A stretch of DNA of 63,915 nt, counting the filler, from Rhabdomonas costata (lineage: Eukaryota), in the NCBI GenBank assembly GCA_019059605.1. It is 48 parts of 48 records of this genome, joined end to end, with 100 filler letters (N's around TTAATTAATTAA, not from the genome) between each part and the next. Parts side by side here need not be neighbours in the genome. Positions count along the whole stretch, not along the records: positions 2,669 to 3,902 come from JAHMHO010022554.1; 47 more parts are not named here. The stretch is one strand, 5' to 3'. Shown here in pieces: positions 1,335 to 42,587 of the stretch; the first letter of the stretch is position 1, and each line of letters starts with the position of its first letter. The translations under genes and the position numbers were made by a program. Below the pieces are notes generated by a model. That model made no database searches. It was given only the letters and a program-made list of their open reading frames with translations, and was not told where the DNA came from.

Positions 1335-1363
1335 GTTGGGGGGTGGCGGAGGGTGGGTGGCGC

Positions 1364-2568
1364 TTAAATGGCGGCGGCGTACGCCATTGGCGAAGGGAGT
1401 GTCAGGGTCGGGGTATCCGCAGGGCTGGGTGCAGGGCAGCCCATAGGGGCAACAAAGCAAGGGCTGCTACATGTTGCCACGGGCATTGGGCAGGGAGCAG
1501 GCATGGGGCAGGCCACGACGGGAATCGGGCAGGAGTACGGCAGCGGCGCGGGAGCGGAGGGTGCGCAGCACTTGCGGCACTTCAGGCACCACACGATGTC
1601 CAGAATGTGCGCAACCACGGCCAGCGGGAACGCCGCGACGGCCAGGCACCACCCGCTCCCCAGGGTAACCCCGGGGTCGACGACCTCAAAGTCCGTTTGG
1701 AAGGCGGGCCCATAGAATTGCGAGCCGATCACGCACTCGCCTCGGAAGCCCAGGTACACCGCCCACGTGATCAGCGCGAACACCCACTGCGAAACAAAAA
1801 AGAAAAAAATTGTAAGGAACAGGCAAGTCCATATGGGTACAATTGACCCCCACAGTTGATGAACAAGCGCAAAGTTTGGAAACGCGCAAGGTTGCATTTT
1901 TTCAAGGTCCGGCGCAAGCAACAACAGCCACAACGGCAAAAGTCGAAAAACAATTAAGAACGGGCTGACTTCCGGGTGCGCAACCGTAAAGCTATGAAAG
2001 GCATAAACGTTTTAAAGGATATCCTGAAGGGGTTGGACTGCTGCACTGTTGGTTCGAACATATCTGATCCAAACGGGGAGCTATACTTGCAGTCTAGAAC
2101 GAAAACGCCGTGCAATACCACACCAAACGAAAAGACTGTACAAGTGAGTAAACTGTTACCGACAAGCCGCAAGCAGCCATAAGAACAAAGCAAGGAGAGA
2201 GGCGCGACAAACACACACACACACACACAAAGCGAACGGGTAAAGGTGCAAAACCGTGAAAACGCCAATGAGCAGGGCTGGGTTCAGTGCAAAGCTCACG
2301 CAGAACATCAGAAGAATGGACAGCACGAAGTTGAAGAAGCCGAAGATGATCGTCATCACGGAGAACGCACGCACCACCCGCAACAAGTTCATGCAGCCTC
2401 CCGTGTACCCGTTCGAGGGGATGCAGTTTTGCGCCCAGCACGTCGACCACAGACCCTCGTGAACCCCGGAGGTCGAGTCTATCCACCACCACCAGTCCGG
2501 GATCGACGTGCTGATGATGCTGATCACCCACACCACGAACCAGAAGAACGCCGCCGCCCCCACAAAAC
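1364..2568 (-). CDS. Claudin/PMP22-superfamily four-TM protein with Cys/Pro-rich tail, 5' partial; exons 2568-2255 and 1786-1364
   Basis: W..GLW..C..C loop (DWWW..EGLWSTCWAQNC..C) and four hydrophobic segments. Phase-0 GT-AG intron 2254-1787 (ACG|gttttg ... tttcgcag|TGG). Stop at 1364-1366. Confidence 0.75.
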
Positions 2569-2675
2569 NNNNNNNNNNNNNNNNNNNNNNNNNNNNNNNN
2601 NNNNNNNNNNNNTTAATTAATTAANNNNNNNNNNNNNNNNNNNNNNNNNNNNNNNNNNNNNNNNNNNNGGGGTGG

Positions 2676-2774
2676 GTGATTATAGGGAAGATGCCTGGAG
2701 TTGCAGTGCTTCGCTCGCACCCGACCGCCGTGCGAGCGAAGCACTGCAACTCCAGGCATCTTCCCTATAATCAC
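2676..2774. repeat. Perfect 45-bp inverted repeat (9-nt loop) at contig end; probable fold-back artefact
   Basis: 2676-2720 is the exact reverse complement of 2730-2774, and CitF similarity stops where the copied arm takes over. Confidence 0.9.
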
Positions 2775-3460
2775 ACACCACAATGACGGGTCGGCGGCCC
2801 AGGTAATTGGGCATGCTTCTGGCCCTTGCTTTAGAAGATTTTTTTGCAGCATTTTCTTTGTGGGGCTCCGCAACATGGTATGCAAGGACTCCTCTGCATG
2901 ACGAAGCAAGTGTGACCAGGGGATGAGCTGAGACGTTGTTTGCCGGGCAAAAAAAGTTGAGAGTTCAACGCGTTTCCTGGTGGCCGGAAGGGAGCGAGAG
3001 TGGCACAGGAGTGTTTCGCACTACATTATCATTTGCTAAATTGGGGAGTGAGCGACATGGTCAGTTTTGCGTTTTAATACAAAATCAATTTACACCACAC
3101 CTAGACTGTGAAAAAGTGCCATTATCCAAAAAGACGCAGAATGTTGTTGAAGATGACGTGCCAGCGGCAGCAGCTCATAGAGCGGTTAGTGGAGAGATTC
3201 ATGGGTCGATGATCGTCGATCCCATCAACAGAGCGGCCTGGCGACGGGGTTCGTATGCGCAATGGGTGATGGGTGGCCTATGGGGGTTGCTGACTGACCG
3301 TGCGACCTTCGGAGACCAAGCGGCCGACCATGCCGTTCATCGAGCCCTGGATCTGGTGCACCACGCCATCTCTGAGGTGCTCCGCGAGCACCGTGCCGTG
3401 GACCTCAAACAGCGCTGTGGGAGCCAGCGTGAGCCCAGTCACTTGCAACTCTCGGGCAGC
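2711..3460 (-). CDS. citF: Citrate lyase alpha subunit / citrate CoA-transferase, internal fragment; exons 3460-3307 and 2764-~2711
   Basis: Spliced peptide AARELQVTGLTLAPTALFEVHGTVLAEHLRDGVVHQIQGSMNGMVGRLVSE|GKMPGVAVLRSHGGRVRA is colinear with bacterial CitF as I recall it (LTLA..L..H..L.EH...GVV..I.....G.....S.G....SHGGR). Phase-1 GT-AG intron 3306-2765 and upstream acceptor tttttctcaacccaag. Confidence 0.85.
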
Positions 3461-5535
3461 CTTGGGTTGAGAAAAAGCTCCCATTCAGCATGGTATTTGA
3501 GCTGATCACTACCAAAACAACCATGAAAATACGAAAATGGATAAACGTGAGCCACCCCCAGGGTATGGATGCAACTTGAGGGCAGCAGCACACGCTAACG
3601 GAAAACAGAAGACTCAAAGAGTTCCCAAAGCGTAGAAACGGATCAGAAAGACGCCAAGAACCTCACTGCGCTCCATTTCCATATGTTCTCCCAGCTCTCC
3701 CGAAAAAGCACGGGATGTTTTCCGGCCGTTCAGTCCCTTGGCCCGCCGTCTCTTGATAGCACCTCTTTGACTCAGCAATAGGTCCAGGTAAGTACATAGG
3801 CTGTCATAGAGTCTTCTCATCCGAGGCAGCCTCTTAAACAACCTACCTCCAAAATAAGTACTATCCAATATCTCGGTGGCCAGCCCGCACCTCCACCCCA
3901 CANNNNNNNNNNNNNNNNNNNNNNNNNNNNNNNNNNNNNNNNNNNNTTAATTAATTAANNNNNNNNNNNNNNNNNNNNNNNNNNNNNNNNNNNNNNNNNN
4001 NNGGGTGGGGGGAGAGACCAGTGCGCGACGCGGTCGGAGCCGTCAGTTGGGTGGGTCTTTTCATGAGGTGGGGGTGCTCAATCTGAGATTCAGTGACTTT
4101 ATCAATGTTCTTTTGGGGGCACGGCTTTTCTAGAATTCCGGCATTTTCAAGGCGCCATTGCCAAAACCAACAGAACTGTTGTGGAAGGGACCATGCTGCG
4201 CTGGCCCCGCCCACCCATTTCTTCCCAAAAAAAGACATAAAAGACATCGACCATCAGTATGCCCGAGGAAAATTGAAAACGGAGTGACAATTTACAGACA
4301 GTATCAAGCAAAACAAACCGACAAAAGTGGAGGAAAGTCACCCATTCACCAATTTGGTTATTGCATCATGACTTCAGGGAATCCTTGCTTCCAAAAAACG
4401 ATGTGAAACCTATTGCTTGGTTTATTATGGTCACGCATTGAGAAGTTAACCAGTTGACACGAGCAGAAACCGAGTGTCAAATGCTTCCTTGCTCTTTCAT
4501 GGGCACCAAGCGTCCTTCCATACTTTATGAAATTTTTGGCTGGTCCATCGTATCAAGGTTTGCGTGTCACTCATTTTAGCGGCCGCTAATCGCGCATTTC
4601 ACAAATCGCCACACAGTAAACAGCGAAGAGAAGAACACCGGGTGGTGTCTACCATCGTAATTGGTCATTTTCGCTACTATCGCCATCGCGATGCCTATCT
4701 ACTGTAGTATCTGGTGCAGAAGCCGAAGTGAGCTTCATGTACCTATGCACCAGGTGAAATTTTTACAGCATCCAGGAGCCCTTCGAGTCCGTATGCACAC
4801 GAGAGTCGCTACAGCAAGTGGTGTTAATAGTGGTCTTTAAACTCTCAAATCGGTCAGCAGCGGTATGAGACATTCCCCCCTAAAAAGGCGGAGTTTTTCT
4901 GCGGAGTTTAGGGTCAGGACTGAGGGCAGCAATGCTCTCTGGGACTCCGCTACTTCTCGTTGTTTTGGCGCCATTTTTTCACTGTTAGTTATCTTCTCTG
5001 CTGTGTGAACCCGCAGGTGCTGTCCTCCAGCCCTTCACCTACGGGCACTATTCCTCTTCCTCCTCTTCCTCCTGGACCCTCCGAGCACGGAGCTGCGCCA
5101 GCTGAAGGCTTGGCGGTGTGCTTGGTTGTGGCGGTTCTCGTTGGGCCTCCCATTGTCCCTCTCTTTGATCGGGTGTTTCATCGACCATGAGAGAATTTGA
5201 AATCCAAGTGCGTCTTTTTGAAGTCGAACAAACCACNNNNNNNNNNNNNNNNNNNNNNNNNNNNNNNNNNNNNNNNNNNNTTAATTAATTAANNNNNNNN
5301 NNNNNNNNNNNNNNNNNNNNNNNNNNNNNNNNNNNNGGGGTTTGGTGAATTTGATGAAATGTCTTCTCGAGTCTTTGGCTGCAGAAACACTGCTCCTTAA
5401 GGACTTGCCTTCATGCGGATTTTTTCACACTAGATTTTGTGGTAATTCTTCCTTCCCTAGCAGCCCTTCCGCCAACCTCCTTCCCAATCTAAATTGCATT
5501 GGACAGAGCTTTTACTTGATGTCCTCCTGGTGTTG

Positions 5536-12924: not shown

Positions 12925-13879
12925 GTGTCACCTCATCTTCGTGCGGGCGAACCACGACGAACCATGATGAGCCATTTTAACCAACGAAAGGAAAAAGGTA
13001 AAGGCCGTAGTTGATGCCTCCCCACCCCTCCCGAAAAAGACACAAAAGGGCACAGCCTTGCCTTAGTCTTGCCAATTTACCTGCCATCCTATTTTTCTCG
13101 GACTGGTAACAGGGTTGGATTGAACTTGGTAATTGAATTTGTTGCTTGCTCTGTTTTGTTTTTGAAGCTGATGCACCATTCACTGAAGTCACTGAAGACT
13201 GACGGCGCAGTGACGGTTTAATAGACAAAAACACCCNNNNNNNNNNNNNNNNNNNNNNNNNNNNNNNNNNNNNNNNNNNNTTAATTAATTAANNNNNNNN
13301 NNNNNNNNNNNNNNNNNNNNNNNNNNNNNNNNNNNNTGTTTGTGGTTCCTTCCTTCTTGACCTTGGGGCAAAAAGAACTTTTCGGACAAAAAATCAAAAG
13401 ATTATTAACGCCAAGCTGAGCAAACAGAAAACCAGTCTTTTCCTTCGGGAGGGATTGATGAAAACCATGGCTATAACCAATGAGGTTTTTGTTCCTGCCC
13501 TTCAGGTGCTTCACCCACCTGTTGCCGCCGCTCCGGTGGGCACCTTGCGCAGATCGCCTGGCGTTGCGCTGAATGGGGCGTCTGATTTCTCGACGACACG
13601 CTTCTCAAGGGCACCCGCACAATCTCACCTTACCTCAGCTTCATCACAGCATTGTGCACAGTTTGTAGGAAAGGAAAGGATTTGCAGAAAAACCGAAACT
13701 GTCGCCAACAAAAAGAATCTTATTAAATTGTTCCTGTGCGGTGGTCACCACGCGGCGGAAAAAAACCGTGAGGCAGAAGCTGCTTGGAAAAGAGCAGGAA
13801 GGGGGATGCAGTTGTTGTGGTTTGTCTGTTTTTTTGAGGGCAACCCAGCACAGCTTTCACACGCCCTCCCCGCTCTCAA

Positions 13880-14330
13880 ACGGCACGGGCTTCGCTGAAC
13901 TGGACCAAGTCTCGAGTTTGGAGTGAGGCTTCTCTTTCCGTGTGAGTCTCTCGTTGATCGCTTGTCACACGTTCCCCTTTCGAGCGGAGTTGGGTTGCTA
14001 TTTCGGTCCACCCTCCCACTTTGAGGACGCAAACTCAAAGAAGGCTGCGAACACTTCTTAGACATTTGTTTCCTTCTCTTGCGTTCCTGTCTTGGTGCAT
14101 AGAAAATCACCTACCGAGCGCGCACCATCCCCTTTGCAGTCGGAGGTTGGGTTCTCCCTTGACCTCCTCCCAGTGGTCCCAGGCCTGCAAACCCCTATCT
14201 GTGGGCGGGCTCGGAATTATTGACCCCGTGGTGATGGGTCCCTCGCATTCCTTGCGAGCTCCCTCAACTTCGCCTATGACGCGGGCACTCTGTGCTGGAG
14301 TCGACCTCTCCGTTGCCCCGAGGGTTTTTC
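13880..14330 (+). mobile_element. Degenerate non-LTR retrotransposon (RT thumb region, CRE/R2-like)
   Basis: QWSQACKPLSVGGLGIIDP matches the 'W.QA.LP...GGLG' post-RT motif; surrounding frames are broken. Confidence 0.6.
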
Positions 14331-14452
14331 GGATGCAGCACAACACACCGACGCTCTGCTTATATGTTTTTTGAGCAGCAAATAAATGTACGTGATGTGA
14401 AAGTGGAAGGTCCAGCTGTGGCAGGTCCTCTCCACCAAAGAGATGGTGTTGC

Positions 14453-14565
14453 GGGCGATGAATGTCAGCATGAAGACGCAGCTGGAATCTTTTGAGCCTC
14501 ATGAACAATGCTTGGTATGGTGCAAAAAGATTCCAGCTGCGTCTTCATGCTGACATTCATCGCCC
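14453..14565. repeat. 41-bp perfect inverted repeat at contig end; probable fold-back artefact
   Basis: 14453-14493 is the reverse complement of 14525-14565. Confidence 0.9.
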
Positions 14566-15237
14566 CCAACNNNNNNNNNNNNNNNNNNNNNNNNNNNNNN
14601 NNNNNNNNNNNNNNTTAATTAATTAANNNNNNNNNNNNNNNNNNNNNNNNNNNNNNNNNNNNNNNNNNNNGTTTGTGGGGAAGGCACAGCCGGCCGGCAT
14701 GTGGTGCAGCGGATGGAGACCTGCGGGACGCGGGATGGCTTCCTGTTCCCACTGAAGGATTAGACGTCGCAGAGTTTGGTCCCTCCTCGTCGAGTTCACC
14801 GGATGGGCTGAAAGCCAGGCCATGGGGGAGGGACCGCCAAAGAACTCAACTGCTTCTTCGTTGAATCGGGAGGAAAGGTACGCGGACCTGTGCAGCCTCA
14901 GCGTCCGGGAGCTCTCAAATGATGCACGATTTTGCACGCGCCGAAACAGTATTTCAACACCATGCACGCCGAATCGATCGCGGAGCCGAGAGTTACCAGT
15001 CCCTTCGTCCCAACTGGAATACTTCGCTTGGGCTAAAAGTGTCCCAGCTGGTGGTGGGCCTGAGGATCAGCTGCAAACACAATTTCCAAGTTCAAGACTC
15101 GGGAAGGGAGTCTTGGCAAAAAATTCAATTGTGAACCCTGACTGGGGTGAACCGGATACATGCAGTTTTCGAATCTTTCACAGCGTTCATCAGCAATGTA
15201 ACCGAATACTTTGCCACCGTTGCGCACTTTTTTTCAG

Positions 15238-18672: not shown

Positions 18673-19906
18673 GGTACGGTACGGGCTGACTGTACACCGT
18701 GGCGTTGATCAGGGCCTTCGTGCTGGTGTTCGCGGAGAGGATGCACCTGCGGGCACAATCGGAAGGGTACATGATGTCGGACTCGATGAGCGGATGCGCT
18801 TATTTAATGAGCCAGCTTGGCTTAGGTGTGCTTCGGTTTGGCTGTTGGAACAAACCCTTTCTTGGATCCAAAAGAACGGTCTCTTACCCCCACCCAGTTC
18901 TTCATTCTCCATCTCCCGAGACGTTCCGAGAAACGCAGCGAGAGTTCTATTGTGTTCTATTTCCACTGACTTCCCTCTTTTCCCCTTTTGTCACCCACTC
19001 TCTTTTCTCCTGAGGTCGTTGAAAAAAGGCAAACGTCCTCGTCGGTCGCCTCACATGGTCTTGGGTATGCAACAAGTAAACCCGGTCAGTACCTCACCTC
19101 GATTAAAAAAACAGTGTACCCGCGGTTCACAAGCCAAGTGCGTCCCGGCCCTGTGAGGCCGTAGGAGGCCGCCAGGTGCACCACGTCGTCGCAGGGGGTT
19201 GCCGTCAGCACCACCACCCTGGGGTTCTGCCGGCGCAGGACGTCCAGCGCAGTCCGCAGGTCCGCAAGCCGGGAGAAGGTCTGCGGAGAGTGAGGAGACG
19301 GCGAGCGGAGGACTTCACCTCCTCAGATCTCAGGAGTTTGGCGAAGGAGGTGTGTGGTCGAGGAAATTTCGATTTTTCTTTCAACTTTTGTCCAACCATT
19401 TTCTTAGCAGTTTCTTTAATAAATTCCCATTCTCACATGCTTCTCCTCTTCTTCGGAATCTGTCGATCGTGCTTCTCTTCAAGCTCCCGTGGCTACACCT
19501 CCTCACCCCTGGGGGTGTAAGTATACCCACTCCGCAATGTCCCGCTCCGCTCGGTACCACCCTTTGCCTCTGATCGGCGACCTTAGAGATCCCTATTTCA
19601 GGGGAGTTCCGCAGGCAGGATGCATGCAACGAAGTTGACCCCATGGCCCCGACTGACACCGACCCAACCGATCCCAAGAGACGTGGGACCTGGTGGACGC
19701 TGACGGAGACCCCAAGCATCACCGCTGTGGCGCGGAAGAACACGCTGAGGCGCAGGGGGTAGGGGTCCGCGGAGCTCAGGCTGGCCGCGGCCTTCCACCC
19801 GAACCACTGCACCAAAGTGGCCAGCAGGGCCCCCTCGCGGCGGGCGGTGTGACCCATGTACAGCACTGGGGGGCTGAAGTCGGACAGGTCCAACTCCACG
19901 CCGTAG
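18673..19906 (-). CDS. ANF-receptor / type-1 periplasmic-binding-fold domain protein; exons 19906-19690, 19280-19120, 18746-18673
   Basis: LVQWFGWKAAASLSSADPY..., LRRQNPRVVVL...AASYGLTGPGRTWL resemble 'FGW..V...S.D.Y ... RVIVL ... A...GL.G..YVW'. GT-AG introns are phase consistent. Confidence 0.65.
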
Positions 19907-36700: not shown

Positions 36701-39700
36701 GGGTATGCCGATGTTTTACCGATCTGCGTGTGACACTAGCTCTAGTTTTTCGCATCTCACTATGTGGCGCGGGCCATATATCACCCTATATATATTGCCC
36801 TCAAACCGGGAGGGTGAGTGGTAACGGTGATGATAACGCTATGCAAAACGCTACAAAAAATGTGCCAGTGAATGAAAGGGCTTTGTGTGAAAGCGTTTGT
36901 TTTGAACCAAGGGAGCTGGTCGAGCAATGACGGTTTACGCAGGGTCGGCCTTTTCAACATTTTTTTGCCGCAATTTAGATTCTTTTTTATAATTTCTTAA
37001 ATGCATTTTAAAAAATTATAAATTATAAAATTATAAAATTGTCGCTCCAAGAAATATTTTCACGCAAATATGTACTGCCTTCGAGCAGTCACAGGGCCTT
37101 AAAAACCATCAACACGATATAAATCCGTTTAATTTACAATATTTGTCAAGCAGTGTTCCAAAGAAAGGAAGAAAAAAGAAACATTGTTCACGAGTGTTCC
37201 GTGCTTGGCACAATTATTCAAAATTACGATAAATCCCTTCTCCCCACACTGCTANNNNNNNNNNNNNNNNNNNNNNNNNNNNNNNNNNNNNNNNNNNNTT
37301 AATTAATTAANNNNNNNNNNNNNNNNNNNNNNNNNNNNNNNNNNNNNNNNNNNNAAAAAACTCGAAAACAAAAATAAACATGTGTAATGTGACGACAGAG
37401 TGCAACAGAGATGTACACAGAGTGCTACAGTGGAATGTAGCCTGTAGAGGTGAGCGTAGTGGTAGTGATGGTTTTGGATGGCCTTGCGTGTATTTGGCAA
37501 CGCTGGTGCAACACAGAAGTAGCCGATCAGGTTAACAATCGATGTCTACTGAGCAAGACTCGTGGTAAATTTTCCAATGTTTACGTTGACCAGTTGGTGA
37601 ATGCAGTTGGAAAAATTAACTCGATTTAATTTCTAATGTTTTGAATTCACATGCTCTGTACAAATTACGAAAGCAATAGAATTCACACTATTTTGAATTT
37701 TCAACACTGTAAACACTGATGCAACGTGTTTCCGTTTCCGTTTCCGTTTCTGCATCTGTTACACTCGAAAGTCGAATATTACGATTGCATCTCCGCACCA
37801 TTTACTTCAGCACGCTTGCACTTTTGAAAGTTCAACCAATTCAGAATCCTAAATAAACCTAATCTAACCATTCCCAGATTGACTGACAGGAAATGTACCA
37901 TTTAGAATTTGGGAGGGAATTCTGATAGTGCTGTTGTTTATCCATCCAAATGCACAGTTTTGCAAAGTGTACGCTATAAAAGATTTATGGAGTAAGACAA
38001 GATATATCTGGAAGTAAATAAGAAAATCAGTTTCTGCACAAATGGGAATTCCGTAACCGTGACACCGTTTCCAAGCGTAGTGCCCCCCCAATGCTTTGCA
38101 TAATGAAGGTGAAGGGATGACCCTGGACCTTGTGCTTTGGGAACTCATCTGAACCACTTTTTTGCGTTTGTGTATGTGTGTGTGTTTTCACCCCTTACAC
38201 CCAAAAAAAGAAACCTTCCCGTTGACTCCTCCTGATGCGCAGTAAATAGGTCCTTCGCCGCTGCCGTATGCTCTCGTGTTGGTGTGATGTGAATGGTATT
38301 AGCCCCCATCCACTTGTGAACACAAAGTTCGATTCTCAGGCCCTAAACGTACCAGGACTCATCTTGCGTCCCCCCCCTCTTACACGGCAACGCGAGCAAA
38401 TAAATGCCCCACATTACGTCTTATAAGTGCCAGTCATGTCGTCCTCCACCCCTGCAGCACGGAGAGCTCTGTGTTGTCTGTAGTCTGCGTGTGACAGAAC
38501 AAATGGGTGCAGAGTACAACATCCCCTGGTTTAGGGCACCCCCCATCCGCTCTCGCTGTATCGGTGTCTGCATCCTTACACACCCCCNNNNNNNNNNNNN
38601 NNNNNNNNNNNNNNNNNNNNNNNNNNNNNNNTTAATTAATTAANNNNNNNNNNNNNNNNNNNNNNNNNNNNNNNNNNNNNNNNNNNNTGTTAAAGGATAC
38701 GGGTGGAGAGCGCTCTCATGTGGAACTTTGTTTTTTGGTTGTGTCTGTCTTTGGTAGTGGTGGTAGTTTGGCCTTTATTATTAAGAGCATAATACCTCAA
38801 CGGCATTATGCACGCTCTATAAGTTCATTGTAGTGCTACCTGTAATTTCACATGTGTCGCACTGTAAACTCAGAGCATGTGATTTAAATCTGTCAAGCCA
38901 ACACTGCACACACCAGACAGCAGTTGAAAGTCACCGTGAAAAACCTTCGCAAATCGTTGCGCACTGTTCTCTTAGTTTTGGTGTGTTACCTGCTTTCCTG
39001 CTTGCGTGCTCACTTTCCCAGATTTTGCAGTACCTCCCTTTGCACAGGCTTGCTCCACTGTCTCTCTCTCACCCTCTCTTTCTCTATCTCTCTCAGGGCT
39101 GTGGCGCATCACTTTTTCAGGAGGTGTTCTGCCTTTCCGTTTACTTTCCGAGTGCCTTGCTTTTTTCAGTAACACGACAGAAGTTTTCAATAAAACATGC
39201 CGTTTTCTTCGGCAGTCTTACAACAGGTCATCTGGGATTATCCGTGCCGCAAGAAGCGTTAATTTTTTCAGTATCGCTGTAACACTGGGATTTTCACCCA
39301 TTTGTCTGATGCAAAGGGTTTTGACGCAAAACATGAACGCATTTTATTTTAAGAGAGAAAAACTGGGGCACGTCAAGTGGGTTTTCCGTCCTCGAGTTCT
39401 TCCGTGCAAGCCTTGGTCTTTTTTGCCTTTGGCCAGTCATCAGCATTGACCTTTTCCTGGGTGGGTGAAATAAACGCAACCATGTCGATATTTGCAGCCA
39501 TGGGGAACGCTCCCTGATATTTCATAACGACCATTTACGGGATCACTGGGCGCTCACAAACGGAAGCTTTAGGATTAATAAACATCTCTGGATTATTCCT
39601 TCAGGTTCTGAATTTACGCTGTACTTCGTCTTGGAAACTGCATCCTCTTGGTAACAAGGTTACACAACAATAGAATAAATCCTGAATCCTCTTCCCGCTC

Positions 39701-40329
39701 CCAACATTGATCAGTGGGGAAAGGCGGGACTTGTCGGGGTGATGCGGGGAGGTCGTCCACAATTTTTACTAGTATTCGAGCATACGTCCACAAGTGCGGA
39801 CGGTCTGTGCGATTGTGCCCTTTGTGGGGCTGTGCACGCGGGGCCAGTACAGGGAAGCCCCTCTATTAGGGGTCCTGTTTATAGGCCCGTGGCCTATTTG
39901 GTGTGTAGGGGCACAAACACNNNNNNNNNNNNNNNNNNNNNNNNNNNNNNNNNNNNNNNNNNNNTTAATTAATTAANNNNNNNNNNNNNNNNNNNNNNNN
40001 NNNNNNNNNNNNNNNNNNNNTGTTGTTGTGTTTGTGTGTGGGGCGCTTTCTTTCAAAACAAGAAGATGCCCATTCTCAAGCTGAAAGAAAGCGCCCCACA
40101 CACAAACACAACAAGAAAAAAGACACGAACAAACATCTTCTGCTGATTTGGGTGAGCTGCTTCAGCTGTCCATTTCGTTTTTCAGAGGTTGCAGCGTGCG
40201 CTCCGGTGCTGCGGCTGGACTGAAGAAGTTAACCGGATGCCGCCCGCCAACGTGAGAGCAGGAGTGGCGGATACGCCTGCGCAGACTGCATGCTGGGCTG
40301 GCGTGGAAGTTGCTGCGATACTTGAACTC

Positions 40330-40760
40330 TGAGGGTGGAGGCCTTCCGCCTGACCAGCGTGGGAACCACGCGTACCACCATGTGGACATTCTCGCAGCCT
40401 ACGCAGTGGGCTCTTTTCGGCCGTGGAGTTCAGCTCGGAGCTGAGGCACGTCACTGGAGTTCCCTTTCGTTCAGTTCCTTGCAGATGCCCGAGATGCGGT
40501 GACCATGCCGACGCCCTTGAAATCCACGCCGTCTGTTGCCAGCTGAGATGGCAAATTACGCGCTCCCACTTGCGCTGCGCGACCAGTTGGCAAAGAATTC
40601 CGAGGACGACAAAGACCAGAACGCCCCGCCGACATCAACGTGCAAACATGGAAGAGGCGTCCCATGGACATTGACGTCACCGCGTAACGCCGACGGCACT
40701 CTCGGAGGCCCAGAAGGTCCAAGCAGCAGAGCTCCTACTGCATGCAGAAGCTGTGGCAAA
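40330..40760 (+). mobile_element. Degenerate RLE-type non-LTR retrotransposon (CRE/SLACS-like) 3' region
   Basis: CCHC knuckle CPRCGDHAD...HAVCC followed, after a frameshift, by restriction-like endonuclease motif RPADINVQTWKRRPMDIDVT at about 40622-40682. Confidence 0.8.
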
Positions 40761-41354
40761 ATGCAATCTACCCCAGAAACACGATAGTAACGCATTTCTG
40801 CATAGTGAGAAAAATGCTGATAGTGTTCACTGGTTACTTTTTTGTCTTCTTTGTGTTCACTTTTTTCCAGGAACCCAAATTGGACGCTCCCTCTAATGAA
40901 CTTTGGTAAAATGTTGAAATTATCTGGGCATTAAAGAATAACCATCCCTCCTTGAGAAATTTGCCTTGGTCATGACACTCACCCACCCTGTCTTTGGATC
41001 TTTGGCCGCTGCGCTCCGCGGCCCAAGAAATCTTGGACCAGCAAAAACTGGCCATTAGTGTGGGGCAAAGGTCACCAACCCTGTTTCAACCCCCACCGCC
41101 CTCCCGCTTCGGACTGGCCTCCGCACCAAAAAAAAGTACTTTTGCACTGCAATCTCCTGGGAACCGCTCATCGCCTCTCTGGGGTAAAAACCTCTCTAGG
41201 GTAAAAACCACGGAAGACCACTGCACCCACGGGCACTTCCCCGCCCACGCACANNNNNNNNNNNNNNNNNNNNNNNNNNNNNNNNNNNNNNNNNNNNTTA
41301 ATTAATTAANNNNNNNNNNNNNNNNNNNNNNNNNNNNNNNNNNNNNNNNNNNNG

Positions 41355-41729
41355 GGGGTGGGTGTGGGAGCCAAGGGGAAGAATCAGCCTAATGTGTGGA
41401 ATCTTGAGCGCAGTTCTGCGCTCCACCGAACCCGGGAGTACGACCACAGCTGGTATGAAGACTTGATGTTCCACCACAACACGGTCACACGAACCACGCA
41501 CTTCCCCCACGCCGTCGGGCTGGACGAGGGGGTTGGGCTGGACCACTGCTACGACTGCGCCGCAGAGCTGTTTCTGCTGCAGAAGTATCTCGTCGACTAC
41601 CACGGCGGGCGAGAAGTCAGTGCGGACCTGCTTTGGGATGTGCTGGAGTTGAGCCGGGAGGTCTCCCAGTACTGCAGCAGCGCCGGCCGCACGCTAAGGC
41701 TGTGCGCTGGGGAAAAGGACGAGGAGTGA
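41355..41729 (+). CDS. VP39-like (poxvirus poly(A) polymerase regulatory subunit family) cap 2'-O-methyltransferase, C-terminus
   Basis: YDHSWYEDLMFHHNTVTR...LDHCYDCAAELFLLQKY fits the 'YD...YE..M...N...R ... CYDC..E..IL..Y' tail of this family. Confidence 0.7.
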   Translation, partial: GVGVGAKGKNQPNVWNLERSSALHRTREYDHSWYEDLMFHHNTVTRTTHFPHAVGLDEGVGLDHCYDCAAELFLLQKYLVDYHGGREVSADLLWDVLELSREVSQYCSSAGRTLRLCAGEKDEE

Positions 41730-42258
41730 GGGCGTAAATGCAGCAAGGGCTGCCCTTTGTACAGTGGAACATTGCTGCCCTGCTTGGTTCAGGGATGTTA
41801 TCTTCATGCTCTTCGCTGAAAAGCAGAAGATTTTATGAGAACACCGGCTGGGTTACCCATTAACGCCATCCTACCACTTCAGGATATGATTCAGTGATTT
41901 TAGCCAGGCTACCCCAACCGCGCTTAATCTAACAGAAGTACTCCGCAAGGTTGAGATCTGGTTTCCTTCTGGTCTCCGCTGGGCAGTTAAGATTTCAACA
42001 CACGAAAATTCGGGTGTTGGGGGGAGGGTTCAACAAACACCCCAAGTCAGTGCTATGGCCAACCAAGTTCTTGGTTTTAGTAGGATTCCGTTTCCGAGCT
42101 GTAACCACAACTCTAGCGCCCCTGGCAAAGGATGTAAGGCAGTTTGGGCCTACCGCTGTGCCAGGTAAATCCAGTGCTAAGATTGCTGTGCATGACGTTC
42201 GGCGTCGGCTTTGCTCTTGGTGTGCCTCGTGGGATTTCTCTCGGAGGATTCTCCGCCT

Positions 42259-42304
42259 CCGAGCAGCGGAGGAATCCTCCTCGGAGGATTCCTCCGCTGC
42301 TCGG
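42259..42304. repeat. Perfect 22-bp palindrome with 2-nt loop
   Basis: ccgagcagcggaggaatcctcc-tc-ggaggattcctccgctgctcgg. Confidence 0.95.
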
Positions 42305-42495
42305 GAGACCTTGGTGGCCGCCCTGCGAGAGGAGCGCGTTCAGACCTTTGTGTGGCCCTCGCAGTGGGTCCAGCCGTGGGAACCTGCGGGAAGTCCAGCC
42401 CATCAGCGGTATCAAGAGCAGCCTGTGGTCTCCAGGAGACCGTGTTCCACTGGAACCACGCCGCCATGGCGCAAGCGTGACTGAACCCTTCTTGG

Positions 42496-42587
42496 GGGTG
42501 AGAACGTGTCAGCCTAGGTAAAGGTTTCTCAGGATCATATGCATGGGGTCCAGCAGAAGGTTTTCCTAGGCTGACACGTTCTCACCC
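42496..42587. repeat. 23-bp inverted repeat reaching the contig end; probable fold-back artefact
   Basis: 42496-42518 is the reverse complement of 42565-42587. Confidence 0.85.

What the first reader, a model, noticed from the sequence alone, without database searches (positions are those of the whole stretch)
2711..3460. Bacterial-type citrate lyase alpha subunit (citF) carrying spliceosomal introns
Seen: two exons, split across unrelated-looking ORFs in the track, join in phase over a 542-nt GT-AG intron to give LTLAPTALFEVH..EHLRDGVV..GSMNG..VSEG|KMP..LRSHGGRVRA. Established: CitF is the acyl-transferase of the ATP-independent CitD/E/F citrate lyase of fermentative bacteria. It needs an ACP activated by CitC/CitG/CitX, whereas eukaryotes normally use ATP-citrate lyase. 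Inference: the introns argue against contamination and for a laterally acquired, domesticated gene. That could mean an unrecognised ATP-independent citrate cleavage or CoA-transfer route in this protist. I do not know of a description, but could not search the literature.
Basis: partly seen in the sequence, partly recalled or inferred. Interest (0 to 1): 0.85.

Follow-up and report, generated by a model that had tools for sequence, protein, structure and literature searches.

The report
Euglenid citrate-lyase alpha gene fragment with introns
A small genome fragment of the colourless euglenid Rhabdomonas costata carries two intron-separated exons of a bacterial-type citrate lyase alpha-subunit gene, whose closest relatives are similar and so far little-discussed genes in several oxygen-poor-habitat protists.

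Summary
The window is 48 unrelated ~1.2-kb contigs joined by spacers. The finding lies on contig 2669-3902, minus strand. Exon A (3460-3307) and exon B (2764-2712) join in phase over a 542-nt GT-AG intron. The joined peptide is collinear, without gaps, with CitF proteins. It scores 64.6 bits against a prokaryote CitF profile, against 33.9 and 12.9 bits for the exons alone.

Exon A is 100% identical to a transcript-derived protein of Rhabdomonas costata (EukProt RCo018399, Pfam CitF). That protein continues upstream, so a second intron lies 5' of 3460. The last ~45 nt of the contig are a fold-back artefact.

The gene is not unique. It sits in a fully supported clade with CitF genes of Mastigella, Barthelona, Kipferlia, Paratrimastix and Anaeramoeba. 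Most of those are CitF-CitD-CitE fusions. The nearest prokaryote relatives keep citD/citE but lack citX and citG, so dependence on that cofactor machinery is doubtful.

Whether R. costata has the lyase (CitE) part could not be determined. I found no paper describing any of these eukaryotic genes. Verdict: a real gene, the first euglenozoan member of a database-annotated but undiscussed eukaryotic citrate-lyase group.

The parts
3461..3902 (-). 3' part of an upstream intron, at least 442 nt and cut by the contig end, ending in AG at 3462-3461
   Evidence: The transcript-derived protein P0001 has 94-95 further N-terminal residues (...SFHHHLREGDQVVGLALK) that tblastn does not find anywhere on the contig. 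Identity starts at residue 95 = 3463/3460. A pyrimidine-rich tract plus AG directly precedes 3460.
3307..3460 (-). Exon A of the CitF-family gene (51 codons plus 1 base)
   Evidence: 100% identical over 44 aa to R. costata protein P0001. Pfam CitF profile positions 45-93. 54-66% identical to P0002, P0003 and P0011.
2765..3306 (-). 542-nt GT-AG intron, phase 1
   Evidence: GT at 3306-3305 and AG at 2766-2765. The frame stops 8 codons after the donor. Homologues are collinear across the join.
2712..2764 (-). Exon B, partial (2 bases plus 17 codons): KMPGVAVLRSHGGRVRA, with the SHGGR motif that is invariant in the family alignment
   Evidence: 13/18 identical to P0004 and 14/18 to P0011. H155 G156 G157 R158 are invariant in alignment A2.
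2669..2720 (.). Fold-back arm at the contig end, the reverse complement of 2730-2779. From 2711 outward it is not gene sequence.
   Evidence: 50-nt inverted repeat, 98% complementary, 9-nt loop. Translation beyond VRA (KHCNSRHL...) no longer matches homologues. The same kind of terminal fold-back occurs on 5 of 48 contigs of the window. The DNA was whole-genome amplified (PMC8219788).

Best explanation
Shown:
- Contig 2669-3902 is a piece of a nuclear, expressed gene of the euglenid Rhabdomonas costata.
- The gene encodes a CitF-family protein (citrate lyase alpha subunit / citrate CoA-transferase, Pfam PF04223).
- It is interrupted by at least two spliceosomal-type introns.
- The contig breaks off in exon B at an amplification/assembly fold-back.
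- The known N-terminal 164 residues start where prokaryote CitF proteins start, with no presequence.
- They belong to a fully supported clade that holds the CitF genes of Mastigella, Barthelona, Kipferlia, Paratrimastix and Anaeramoeba.

Inferred:
- The gene came to eukaryotes by lateral transfer from prokaryotes that carry the short citF + citD-citE form of citrate lyase without citC/citX/citG. It was then inherited or passed on among protists of low-oxygen habitats.
- In R. costata the protein most likely acts in the cytosol as the CoA-transferase half of an ATP-independent citrate cleavage. In step one, citrate + acetyl-thioester gives citryl-thioester + acetate. In step two, a CitE-type lyase, fused or separate, releases oxaloacetate and regenerates the acetyl-thioester.
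- The thioester is probably free acetyl-CoA, or an unconventional carrier, rather than the classical phosphoribosyl-dephospho-CoA arm.
For: - Gene call and splice.
- Organism and expression: P0001 = EukProt EP00906 Rhabdomonas costata RCo018399, 100% identical to exon A and carrying PF04223.
- Assembly properties match the published WGA-based draft, with N50 1194 bp and a monoeukaryotic culture (PMC8219788, passages).
- No N-terminal extension: residue 1 of the composite aligns with residue 1 of P0003, P0004, L002 and others.
- Solved relatives are 2HJ0 and 1XR4, both putative citrate lyase alpha chains.
- Careful IQ-TREE tree, 39 rows chosen from 210: a 20-row clade with support 100/100 holds all 9 eukaryote rows. 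R. costata is sister to Mastigella a at 83/92, with 61% identity over 157 columns. The 51-row quick tree and the 210-row FastTree give the same picture.
- Partners exist in relatives. CitF-(ACP)-CitE fusions occur in Mastigella, Barthelona, Paratrimastix and Kipferlia. Separate CitD-CitE proteins occur in both Anaeramoeba species. The CitD-CitE tree also puts the 8 eukaryote rows in one 10-row clade at 98.
- Prokaryote relatives: CitE lies next to CitF in 67 of 80 loci and CitD in 59 of 80, but CitC/X/G in only 27/26/25 of 80. Five genomes near the eukaryote clade gave CitX 0/5, CitG 0/5 and CitC 1/5, the last a weak 20.6-bit match.
Against: - Only 164 of about 520 CitF residues are known for R. 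costata. The C-terminal half, any fusion, and any CitE/CitD partner are unseen.
- The 3307/2764 junction rests on homology only, with no transcript or reads.
- No R. costata CitE turned up among the 10 of 150 best CitD-CitE hits whose names I could look up, nor in the other 47 contigs of the window.
- Sister placement with Mastigella has moderate support (83/92) and rests on about 157 columns.
- The five prokaryote genomes are metagenome bins of unstated completeness, so absence of citX/citG is not proven.
- The substrate (citrate versus a related acid) is untested for this whole clade.
Confidence: 0.7

Rival explanations
1. Orphan CoA-transferase. R. costata kept only the CitF part and uses it as a free-standing acyl-CoA:carboxylate CoA-transferase, for example for acetate production or activation of another acid, without any citryl-CoA lyase.
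For: - No CitE or CitD of R. costata was found.
- The closest unnamed relative, P0002, is an unfused 546-aa CitF.
- Some prokaryote loci with 10 kb of flank show CitF without an adjacent CitE or CitD, e.g. L014, L017, L021, L022, L060.
Against: - Every named eukaryote in the clade has a CitE domain, either fused or as a separate CitD-CitE gene.
- The CitF and CitD-CitE trees both give one eukaryote-rich clade, which suggests the parts travel together.
- My search for the partner was very incomplete.
Confidence: 0.15
2. The enzyme belongs to a citrate-lyase-like system that acts on another substrate (homocitrate, citramalate or a similar hydroxy-tricarboxylate/dicarboxylate) rather than citrate.
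For: - Substrate specificity is untested for the short two-gene type and its eukaryotic offshoot.
- An earlier, unchecked note of this scan (e1-4689179) proposes a homocitrate-type role for a citrate-lyase-like pair in a Cloacimonadota lysine operon.
- Members of the wider clade include Cloacimonadota sequences (P0027, L013).
Against: - Pfam and source annotations all say citrate lyase, though these are names and not tests.
- The clade is nested within CitF of classical citrate fermenters such as Enterococcus, Clostridium and Fusobacterium, which have full citCDEFXG sets.
Confidence: 0.1
3. Dead or decaying gene fragment. The locus is a pseudogene or a truncated relic, and the inverted repeat at 2671-2779 is a real genomic rearrangement that ends the gene.
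For: - The contig ends in an inverted repeat inside exon B.
- The only transcript-derived protein is 3'-truncated at GSMNG, before the donor site.
Against: - The known 164 residues have no stop or frameshift and keep the family's invariant motifs SFHHH and SHGGR.
- The gene is transcribed.
- Terminal fold-backs occur at the very ends of 5 of 48 contigs, as expected of an artefact of amplified DNA.
Confidence: 0.05
4. Contaminant. The contig and transcript come from another organism in the culture.
For: - The culture held uncharacterised bacteria, and the authors found some bacterial contaminants in the transcriptome (PMC8219788).
- The nearest named relative is an amoebozoan, not a discoban.
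Against: - GT-AG introns exclude a bacterial origin.
- The culture was monoeukaryotic, and the DNA came from FACS-sorted or laser-microdissected cells.
- DNA and RNA preparations agree at 100%.
- Contig GC of 0.529 is close to the assembly's 51.6%.
Confidence: 0.03

Closest known systems
CitF, alpha subunit of the ATP-independent citrate lyase CitDEF of E. coli / Klebsiella (EC 4.1.3.6; CoA-transferase part EC 2.8.3.10), Pfam PF04223; solved relatives 2HJ0 and 1XR4
   Same: - Same Pfam family.
- Same N-terminal start.
- Same SFHHH and SHGGR motifs.
- PDB hits 2HJ0 (E=5.5e-13) and 1XR4 (E=5.3e-12).
   Different: - Only 37% identical to E. coli CitF over 107 aligned residues.
- A nuclear eukaryotic gene with introns.
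- It belongs to a branch whose prokaryote members lack the citC/citX/citG genes that accompany E. coli citDEF.
Fused CitF-CitD-CitE proteins of anaerobic protists: Mastigella eilhardi P0011/P0073, Barthelona P0017/P0043, Paratrimastix pyriformis P0091/P0129 (NCBI: 'putative Citrate lyase alpha chain'), Kipferlia bialata P0145; and the unfused CitF plus CitD-CitE pairs of Anaeramoeba ignava and A. flamelloides
   Same: - Same fully supported clade (100/100).
- 61% identity to Mastigella a over 157 columns, and sister to it at 83/92.
- 14 of 18 residues of exon B identical.
   Different: - R. costata is a euglenid (Discoba) whose mitochondrion the authors describe as facultatively anaerobic (abstract of PMC8219788). 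That the others are anaerobes with reduced organelles is recalled.
- Its domain architecture beyond residue 164 is unknown.
Short prokaryotic citrate lyase: citF plus a citD-citE fusion without citC/citX/citG
   Same: - Nearest prokaryote sequences in the tree: Thermoplasmata, Calditrichota, WOR-3, Krumholzibacteriota and others.
- CitD-CitE fusions of about 400 aa dominate the best hits to the Mastigella C-terminal part.
- The column of the E. coli carrier serine holds K, R or I in the eukaryote linkers.
   Different: - These are prokaryotic operons without introns.
- The eukaryotes have in most cases fused all three parts, in the order F-D-E.
ATP-citrate lyase (ACLY / ACLA+ACLB), the usual eukaryotic citrate-cleaving enzyme
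   Same: It performs the same overall task, cleaving citrate to oxaloacetate and a C2 unit, through a citryl-CoA intermediate (established knowledge).
   Different: - An unrelated family (succinyl-CoA-synthetase-like plus citrate-synthase-like domains) that needs ATP and yields acetyl-CoA rather than acetate.
- Not tested whether R. costata has it.

Membership tests
CitF (Pfam PF04223, citrate lyase alpha subunit / citrate CoA-transferase) | Significant match to the family profile | tested here: met
   - P0001 (R. costata, 100% identical to exon A) carries a precomputed PF04223 hit.
- Exon A alone scores 20.8 bits, E=2.2e-4, below Pfam's 27-bit cut-off.
- Against my own HMM of prokaryote CitF, the spliced peptide scores 64.6 bits and the 164-aa composite 129.4 bits.
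- The composite was not run against Pfam's own model.
CitF (Pfam PF04223) | Conserved N-terminal motifs (DGMT-SFHHH-R-GD and SHGGR) in family order and spacing | tested here: met
   P0001 has DGSTLSFHHHLREGD and exon B has LRSHGGRVRA. These columns are invariant in alignments A1 and A2.
CitF (Pfam PF04223) | Full-length two-domain CoA-transferase fold (about 510 aa) | not testable with these tools
   The contig ends at residue 164, the transcript-derived protein ends at 138, and no genome is held.
ATP-independent citrate lyase complex CitDEF (EC 4.1.3.6) | A CitE (citryl-CoA lyase, HpcH_HpaI) partner in the same organism | tested here: inconclusive
   - No credible hit in the other 47 contigs. 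One tblastn hit at 18764-18988 (E=0.01) has no Pfam family.
- No R. costata entry among the 10 of 150 best CitD-CitE representatives whose names were looked up.
- All named eukaryote relatives do have CitE.
ATP-independent citrate lyase complex CitDEF (EC 4.1.3.6) | CitD acyl carrier protein with the serine that bears the phosphoribosyl-dephospho-CoA arm (Ser14; residue number recalled) | tested here: inconclusive
   - Unknown for R. costata.
- In 6 of 6 fused relatives aligned, the E. coli serine column holds R, I, K, K, a gap and I. Three of the six have a serine one column later.
- The alignment of this short stretch is uncertain.
ATP-independent citrate lyase complex CitDEF (EC 4.1.3.6) | Holo-ACP machinery CitC, CitX, CitG | not testable with these tools
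   - It cannot be searched in R. costata.
- In five prokaryote genomes next to the eukaryote clade: CitX 0/5, CitG 0/5, CitC 1/5 at 20.6 bits. The control genomes rang as expected.
Eukaryotic (protist) citrate-lyase clade | Branches inside the clade that holds the protist CitF sequences | tested here: met
   20-row clade at 100/100 in the careful tree, 21-row clade at 100 in the quick tree, and 100 in FastTree.
Eukaryotic (protist) citrate-lyase clade | CitF-CitD-CitE fusion architecture | not testable with these tools
   The sequence beyond residue 164 is unavailable. The nearest named relative is fused (P0011), the nearest unnamed one (P0002) is not.
Spliceosomal GT-AG intron | GT and AG boundaries and an in-frame join confirmed by RNA | tested here: inconclusive
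   - The boundaries and the in-phase, homology-exact join are met.
- The upstream junction at 3460 is supported at the protein level by transcript-derived P0001.

The most novel reading that the evidence does not exclude
A euglenid with a respiring, facultatively anaerobic mitochondrion shares a citrate lyase with at least five lineages of anaerobic protists. The enzyme was acquired once from prokaryotes of the short citF + citD-citE type and then passed among eukaryotes. Often welded into one F-D-E polypeptide, it would work without ATP and without the classical CitC/CitX/CitG-made prosthetic group. It would use free acetyl-CoA or an unknown carrier chemistry, giving these cells a cytosolic citrate-to-acetate-plus-oxaloacetate fermentation step that has not been described for eukaryotes.
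Probability: 0.3. Interest if true: 0.7.

Novelty: new member of a known kind. Interest (0 to 1): 0.5.

Why it matters
Textbook eukaryotic citrate cleavage uses ATP-citrate lyase. A bacterial-type, ATP-independent citrate lyase in nuclear genomes of protists would add a fermentative branch point (citrate to acetate and oxaloacetate) to models of low-oxygen eukaryotic metabolism. It would also be another example of a metabolic module spread by lateral transfer among unrelated anaerobic or microaerophilic protists.

R. costata extends this module to Euglenozoa and to an organism that still respires. The relatives also pose a biochemical question: how does a citrate lyase work when its carrier serine and its cofactor-loading enzymes are missing?

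I found no paper that discusses these genes (full-text searches). Several are, however, already labelled 'citrate lyase alpha chain' in public protein records. Supplementary tables of the genome papers, which I could not open, may list them.

Tried and rejected
- Searching the window's own genome for CitF: no genome is held.
- Exon B alone, and the whole ORF around it, against Pfam: no family.
- Upstream exon on the contig: none. P0001 residues 1-94 match nothing in 3461-3902.
- CitE, CitD, CitC, CitX, CitG and fusion proteins against all 48 contigs by tblastn: only the two known exons, plus one E=0.01 hit at 18764-18988. That hit has no Pfam family and lacks the lyase motif, so I judged it chance.
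- Search for an R. costata CitE with the CitD-CitE part of the Mastigella fusion against 1.84 billion representatives: 11042 hits at E<=0.001 and 150 listed. Names could be looked up for only 10, and none is R. costata. The other 140 were not looked up. P0143, an unnamed NCBI record (401 aa, unfused), falls in the eukaryote CitD-CitE clade, but its origin is unknown to me.
- Context of the unnamed 8-row sister group of the eukaryote-rich subclade. The first metagenome scan with P0028 found nothing. The second, with alignment A3, returned 80 loci of at most 53% identity, none from that group. Whether that group is prokaryotic stays open.
- Earlier notes of this scan for this genome: none. By words: none.
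- Literature: no paper with 'citrate lyase' plus Paratrimastix or Kipferlia. The two listed papers with Anaeramoeba: passages of PMC11976288 concern ATP-citrate lyase; PMC11216029 was seen only in the listing. The R. costata genome paper has no word beginning 'citrate' in its main text. The euglenozoan comparative paper PMC7052976 has no 'citrate lyase'. Passages in PMC8611851, PMC8887013 and bioRxiv 10.64898/2026.09.23.753574 all refer to ATP-citrate lyase.
Full report
WHAT THE WINDOW IS. The 63,915-base window is not one locus. It consists of 48 stretches of 1231-1246 bp separated by N runs with a TTAATTAATTAA stop-codon spacer. Only 2669-3902 (1234 bp, GC 0.529) is real context for the finding.

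THE OBSERVATION. On the minus strand, an exon starts at 3460, directly after a pyrimidine-rich tract and AG (3462-3461). It reads AARELQVTGLTLAPTALFEVHGTVLAEHLRDGVVHQIQGSMNGMVGRLVSE and ends at 3307 with the first base of a glycine codon. GT follows at 3306-3305, and reading on gives a stop after 8 codons. AG lies at 2766-2765, and from 2764 the frame gives (G)KMPGVAVLRSHGGRVRA, ending at 2712.

Exon A alone matches Pfam CitF at E=2.2e-4 (20.8 bits, below the 27-bit cut-off, profile positions 45-93). Exon B alone matches nothing. The join is confirmed by homology:
- In tblastn, P0002 residues 113-163 cover 3460..3305 and residues 163-182 cover 2765..2706.
- P0003, P0004 and P0006 behave the same way, with no residue missing or added at the join.
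- The Mastigella protein P0011 is 35/53 identical on exon A and 14/18 on exon B.
- I built an HMM from prokaryote CitF only: the ORFs longer than 480 aa, 74 of 80 by the length list, plus E. coli. The spliced peptide scores 64.6 bits (E=8e-19 among 2080 sequences), against 33.9 bits for exon A and 12.9 bits for exon B. No window ORF other than the two that contain these exons scored at E<=10.

WHOSE GENE IT IS. A word-indexed search with exon A found one protein, P0001 (138 aa). It is 100% identical over the overlap and has a precomputed Pfam CitF hit. Its record is EukProt EP00906, Rhabdomonas costata, RCo018399. The R. costata paper (PMC8219788; passages seen) describes the source material:
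- a transcriptome-derived protein set;
- a very fragmented genome draft (N50 1194 bp, GC 51.6%);
- DNA from whole-genome-amplified, FACS-sorted or laser-microdissected cells;
- a monoeukaryotic culture.
This matches the window. P0001 continues upstream of exon A with 94-95 residues (MATVTNSLGRVLP...DGSTLSFHHHLREGDQVVGLALK) that are nowhere on the contig. So 3461-3902 is the 3' part of another intron, and the transcript confirms the exon boundary at 3460. P0001 ends at GSMNG (3332), before the donor at 3307, so it does not test the second junction.

THE CONTIG END. Positions 2671-2720 and 2730-2779 form a 50-nt inverted repeat, 98% complementary, around a 9-nt loop that encodes GGR. Translation after ...SHGGRVRA (KHCNSRHL...) stops resembling any homologue. 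Terminal fold-backs that reach the very end of a contig occur on 5 of the 48 contigs. With amplified DNA this is best read as an amplification/assembly artefact. VRA still matches the homologues although it lies in the copied arm. I infer that the native sequence has a 9-bp inverted repeat (RSH/VRA codons) at which the fold-back was primed. Sequence from 2711 outward should be ignored.

WHAT FAMILY, AND WHO ELSE HAS IT. The 164-residue composite (P0001 plus the spliced exons, built in a script) aligns from its first residue with the first residue of prokaryote CitF proteins. There is thus no N-terminal extension, and I infer a cytosolic location. It is 37% identical to E. coli CitF over 107 residues and 44-51% identical to the best full-length hits. 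Solved relatives are 2HJ0 and 1XR4, both putative citrate lyase alpha chains.

A search with the closest full-length hit, P0002, listed 120 of 7997 CitF proteins. Among the best are eukaryotic entries, identified:
- Mastigella eilhardi, P0011 and P0073 (943 and 944 aa);
- Barthelona sp. PAP020 and PCE, P0043 and P0017;
- Paratrimastix pyriformis, P0091 and P0129 (NCBI name 'putative Citrate lyase alpha chain');
- Kipferlia bialata, P0145 ('citrate lyase, alpha subunit');
- Anaeramoeba ignava and A. flamelloides (521-531 aa, 'citrate lyase alpha chain').
Pfam shows that the long proteins are CitF, then a linker of about 110 residues, then CitE (HpcH_HpaI plus C-C_Bond_Lyase). The linker reaches the ACP/CitD family in Barthelona: 26.9 bits in PCE, over the cut-off, and 21.6 bits in PAP020, under it. 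Both Anaeramoeba species also have separate CitD-CitE proteins, P0147 and P0152, named 'lyase beta subunit'.

TREES. Three analyses agree:
- FastTree on 210 rows. These were all proteins then held, minus P0001 and 13 near-identical cluster members, plus the 80 locus ORFs and E. coli. It puts R. costata next to Mastigella a (95), inside a 21-row clade (100).
- IQ-TREE quick on 51 chosen rows gives the same 21-row clade (SH-aLRT 100) and the same sister pair (93).
- The careful run used 39 chosen rows, with Kipferlia added. It gives a 20-row clade at 100/100 holding all 9 eukaryote rows and 11 unnamed rows. Inside it is a 12-row subclade (83/63) with all eukaryote rows plus P0002, P0010 and P0048. 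R. costata plus Mastigella a has 83/92.
R. costata fills only 30% of the columns, so its exact sister is uncertain while its membership in the clade is not. A tree of the CitD-CitE parts (63 rows) likewise unites the 8 eukaryote rows with P0048 and the unnamed P0143 at 98. The two halves of the enzyme seem to share one history in eukaryotes.

PROKARYOTE RELATIVES AND THE COFACTOR QUESTION. I scanned species-representative genomes, kept the best 80 of 585 confirmed loci, and searched them with the E. coli Cit proteins (reference operon L001).
- CitE lies directly upstream of CitF in 67 of 80 loci and CitD in 59 of 80. CitC, CitX and CitG appear in only 27, 26 and 25 of 80. Several loci are cut by contig ends, so some absences are technical.
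- The complete citCDEFXG sets are in Clostridium, Enterococcus, Desulfosporosinus and similar fermenters.
- The branches nearest the eukaryote clade (Thermoplasmata, Calditrichota, WOR-3, Krumholzibacteriota) show only citD/citE/citF.
- Whole-genome searches of five such genomes gave CitX 0/5, CitG 0/5 and CitC 1/5, the last a 20.6-bit match to a family that also rings in 7 of 14 control genomes. These are metagenome bins of unstated completeness.
- In an alignment of CitD sequences with the linkers of six fusions, the column of the E. coli carrier serine holds R, I, K, K, a gap and I. A serine sits one column later in three of them. That this serine is Ser14 is recalled, and the short alignment is uncertain.
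- Most of the best hits to the Mastigella C-terminal part are CitD-CitE fusions of about 400 aa.
- An earlier, unchecked note of this scan (e1-3363545) reached the same reading for a bacterial two-gene citrate lyase: serine replaced by lysine, no citC/X/G, probably runs on free CoA. My searches agree with it but are not independent proof of the chemistry.

MECHANISM PROPOSED.
- Shown: a CitF-family N-terminus, expressed and intron-bearing, within the protist clade.
- Inferred: the protein transfers the CoA (or carrier) thioester from acetyl to citrate, releasing acetate. A CitE-type domain or partner then cleaves the citryl thioester to oxaloacetate and regenerates the acetyl thioester. The net reaction is citrate to acetate plus oxaloacetate, without ATP. 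That isolated CitF and CitE can work with free CoA esters is recalled knowledge. For an osmotroph from freshwater sediment, whose mitochondrion the authors call facultatively anaerobic (PMC8219788 abstract), this would be a plausible fermentative use of citrate. Nothing here shows flux, substrate or localisation.

WHAT REMAINS OPEN. Four things are unresolved:
- whether R. costata has CitE/CitD, fused or separate;
- the 3' two-thirds of the gene;
- RNA proof of the 3307/2764 junction;
- the substrate.
My one indirect search for an R. costata CitE could name only 10 of 150 hits and found none. The other 47 contigs of the window hold nothing credible. The metagenome scans did not reach the unnamed sister group.

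NOVELTY. The protein is already in a public protein set with a CitF label. Homologues in other protists are named citrate lyase in NCBI records. So the kind is known to databases. I found no paper that discusses a bacterial-type citrate lyase in any of these eukaryotes (searches; passages). I rate the finding as a new member of a known kind, the first from Euglenozoa as far as my searches show, with moderate interest. The wider pattern is the more interesting lead: a laterally spread, often triple-fused citrate lyase that seems to lack its classical cofactor system.

Noticed in passing
window 1-63915: The window is a concatenation of 48 separate contigs of 1231-1246 bp (apparently sorted by length), joined by N runs with a TTAATTAATTAA spacer. 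Features that span a spacer are not real.
   Followed up: yes
window 13337-14570 (right end), 36022-37254 (left end), 40021-41253 (left end), 41354-42587 (right end): Four further contigs end in terminal fold-backs with arms of 22-48 nt and loops of 24-38 nt, like the one at 2669-2779. They are probably artefacts of whole-genome amplification, and contig ends in this assembly should be distrusted.
   Followed up: partly
window 1335-2568, minus strand: The neighbouring, unlinked contig encodes a multi-pass membrane protein in what look like two pieces, about 2566-2247 and about 1790-1366. The first piece matches Pfam PMP22_Claudin (E=1.6e-9, 38.3 bits). The second has a Cys/Pro-rich tail and no family.
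   Followed up: partly
proteins P0011, P0073, P0017, P0043, P0091/P0129, P0145, P0048: Several anaerobic protists (Mastigella, Barthelona, Paratrimastix, Kipferlia) encode all three citrate lyase parts in one polypeptide of about 920-1005 aa, in the order CitF-CitD-CitE. The bacterial operon order is D-E-F. I found no paper on this.
   Followed up: partly
loci L004, L005, L007, L009, L016 (genomes G001-G005): Archaeal and bacterial genomes close to the eukaryote clade have citD/citE/citF together, but no CitX or CitG anywhere in the genome bins (0/5 each) and CitC only as one weak match. In L009 CitD and CitE are one ORF. In L004, L005 and L043 the carrier-serine column holds lysine.
   Followed up: partly
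protein P0143 (unnamed NCBI record, 401 aa): This unfused CitD-CitE protein with a GC-rich amino-acid make-up is the best hit (49% identity) to the Mastigella C-terminal part. It branches at the base of the eukaryote CitD-CitE clade (98). Its organism is unknown to me, and it may be a eukaryotic partner gene.
   Followed up: partly
loci L014, L017, L021, L022, L024, L029, L060: These prokaryote CitF genes have several kb (L024, L029) to 10 kb of upstream flank but no detectable CitE or CitD next to them. They may be stand-alone CitF-type CoA-transferases.
   Followed up: no
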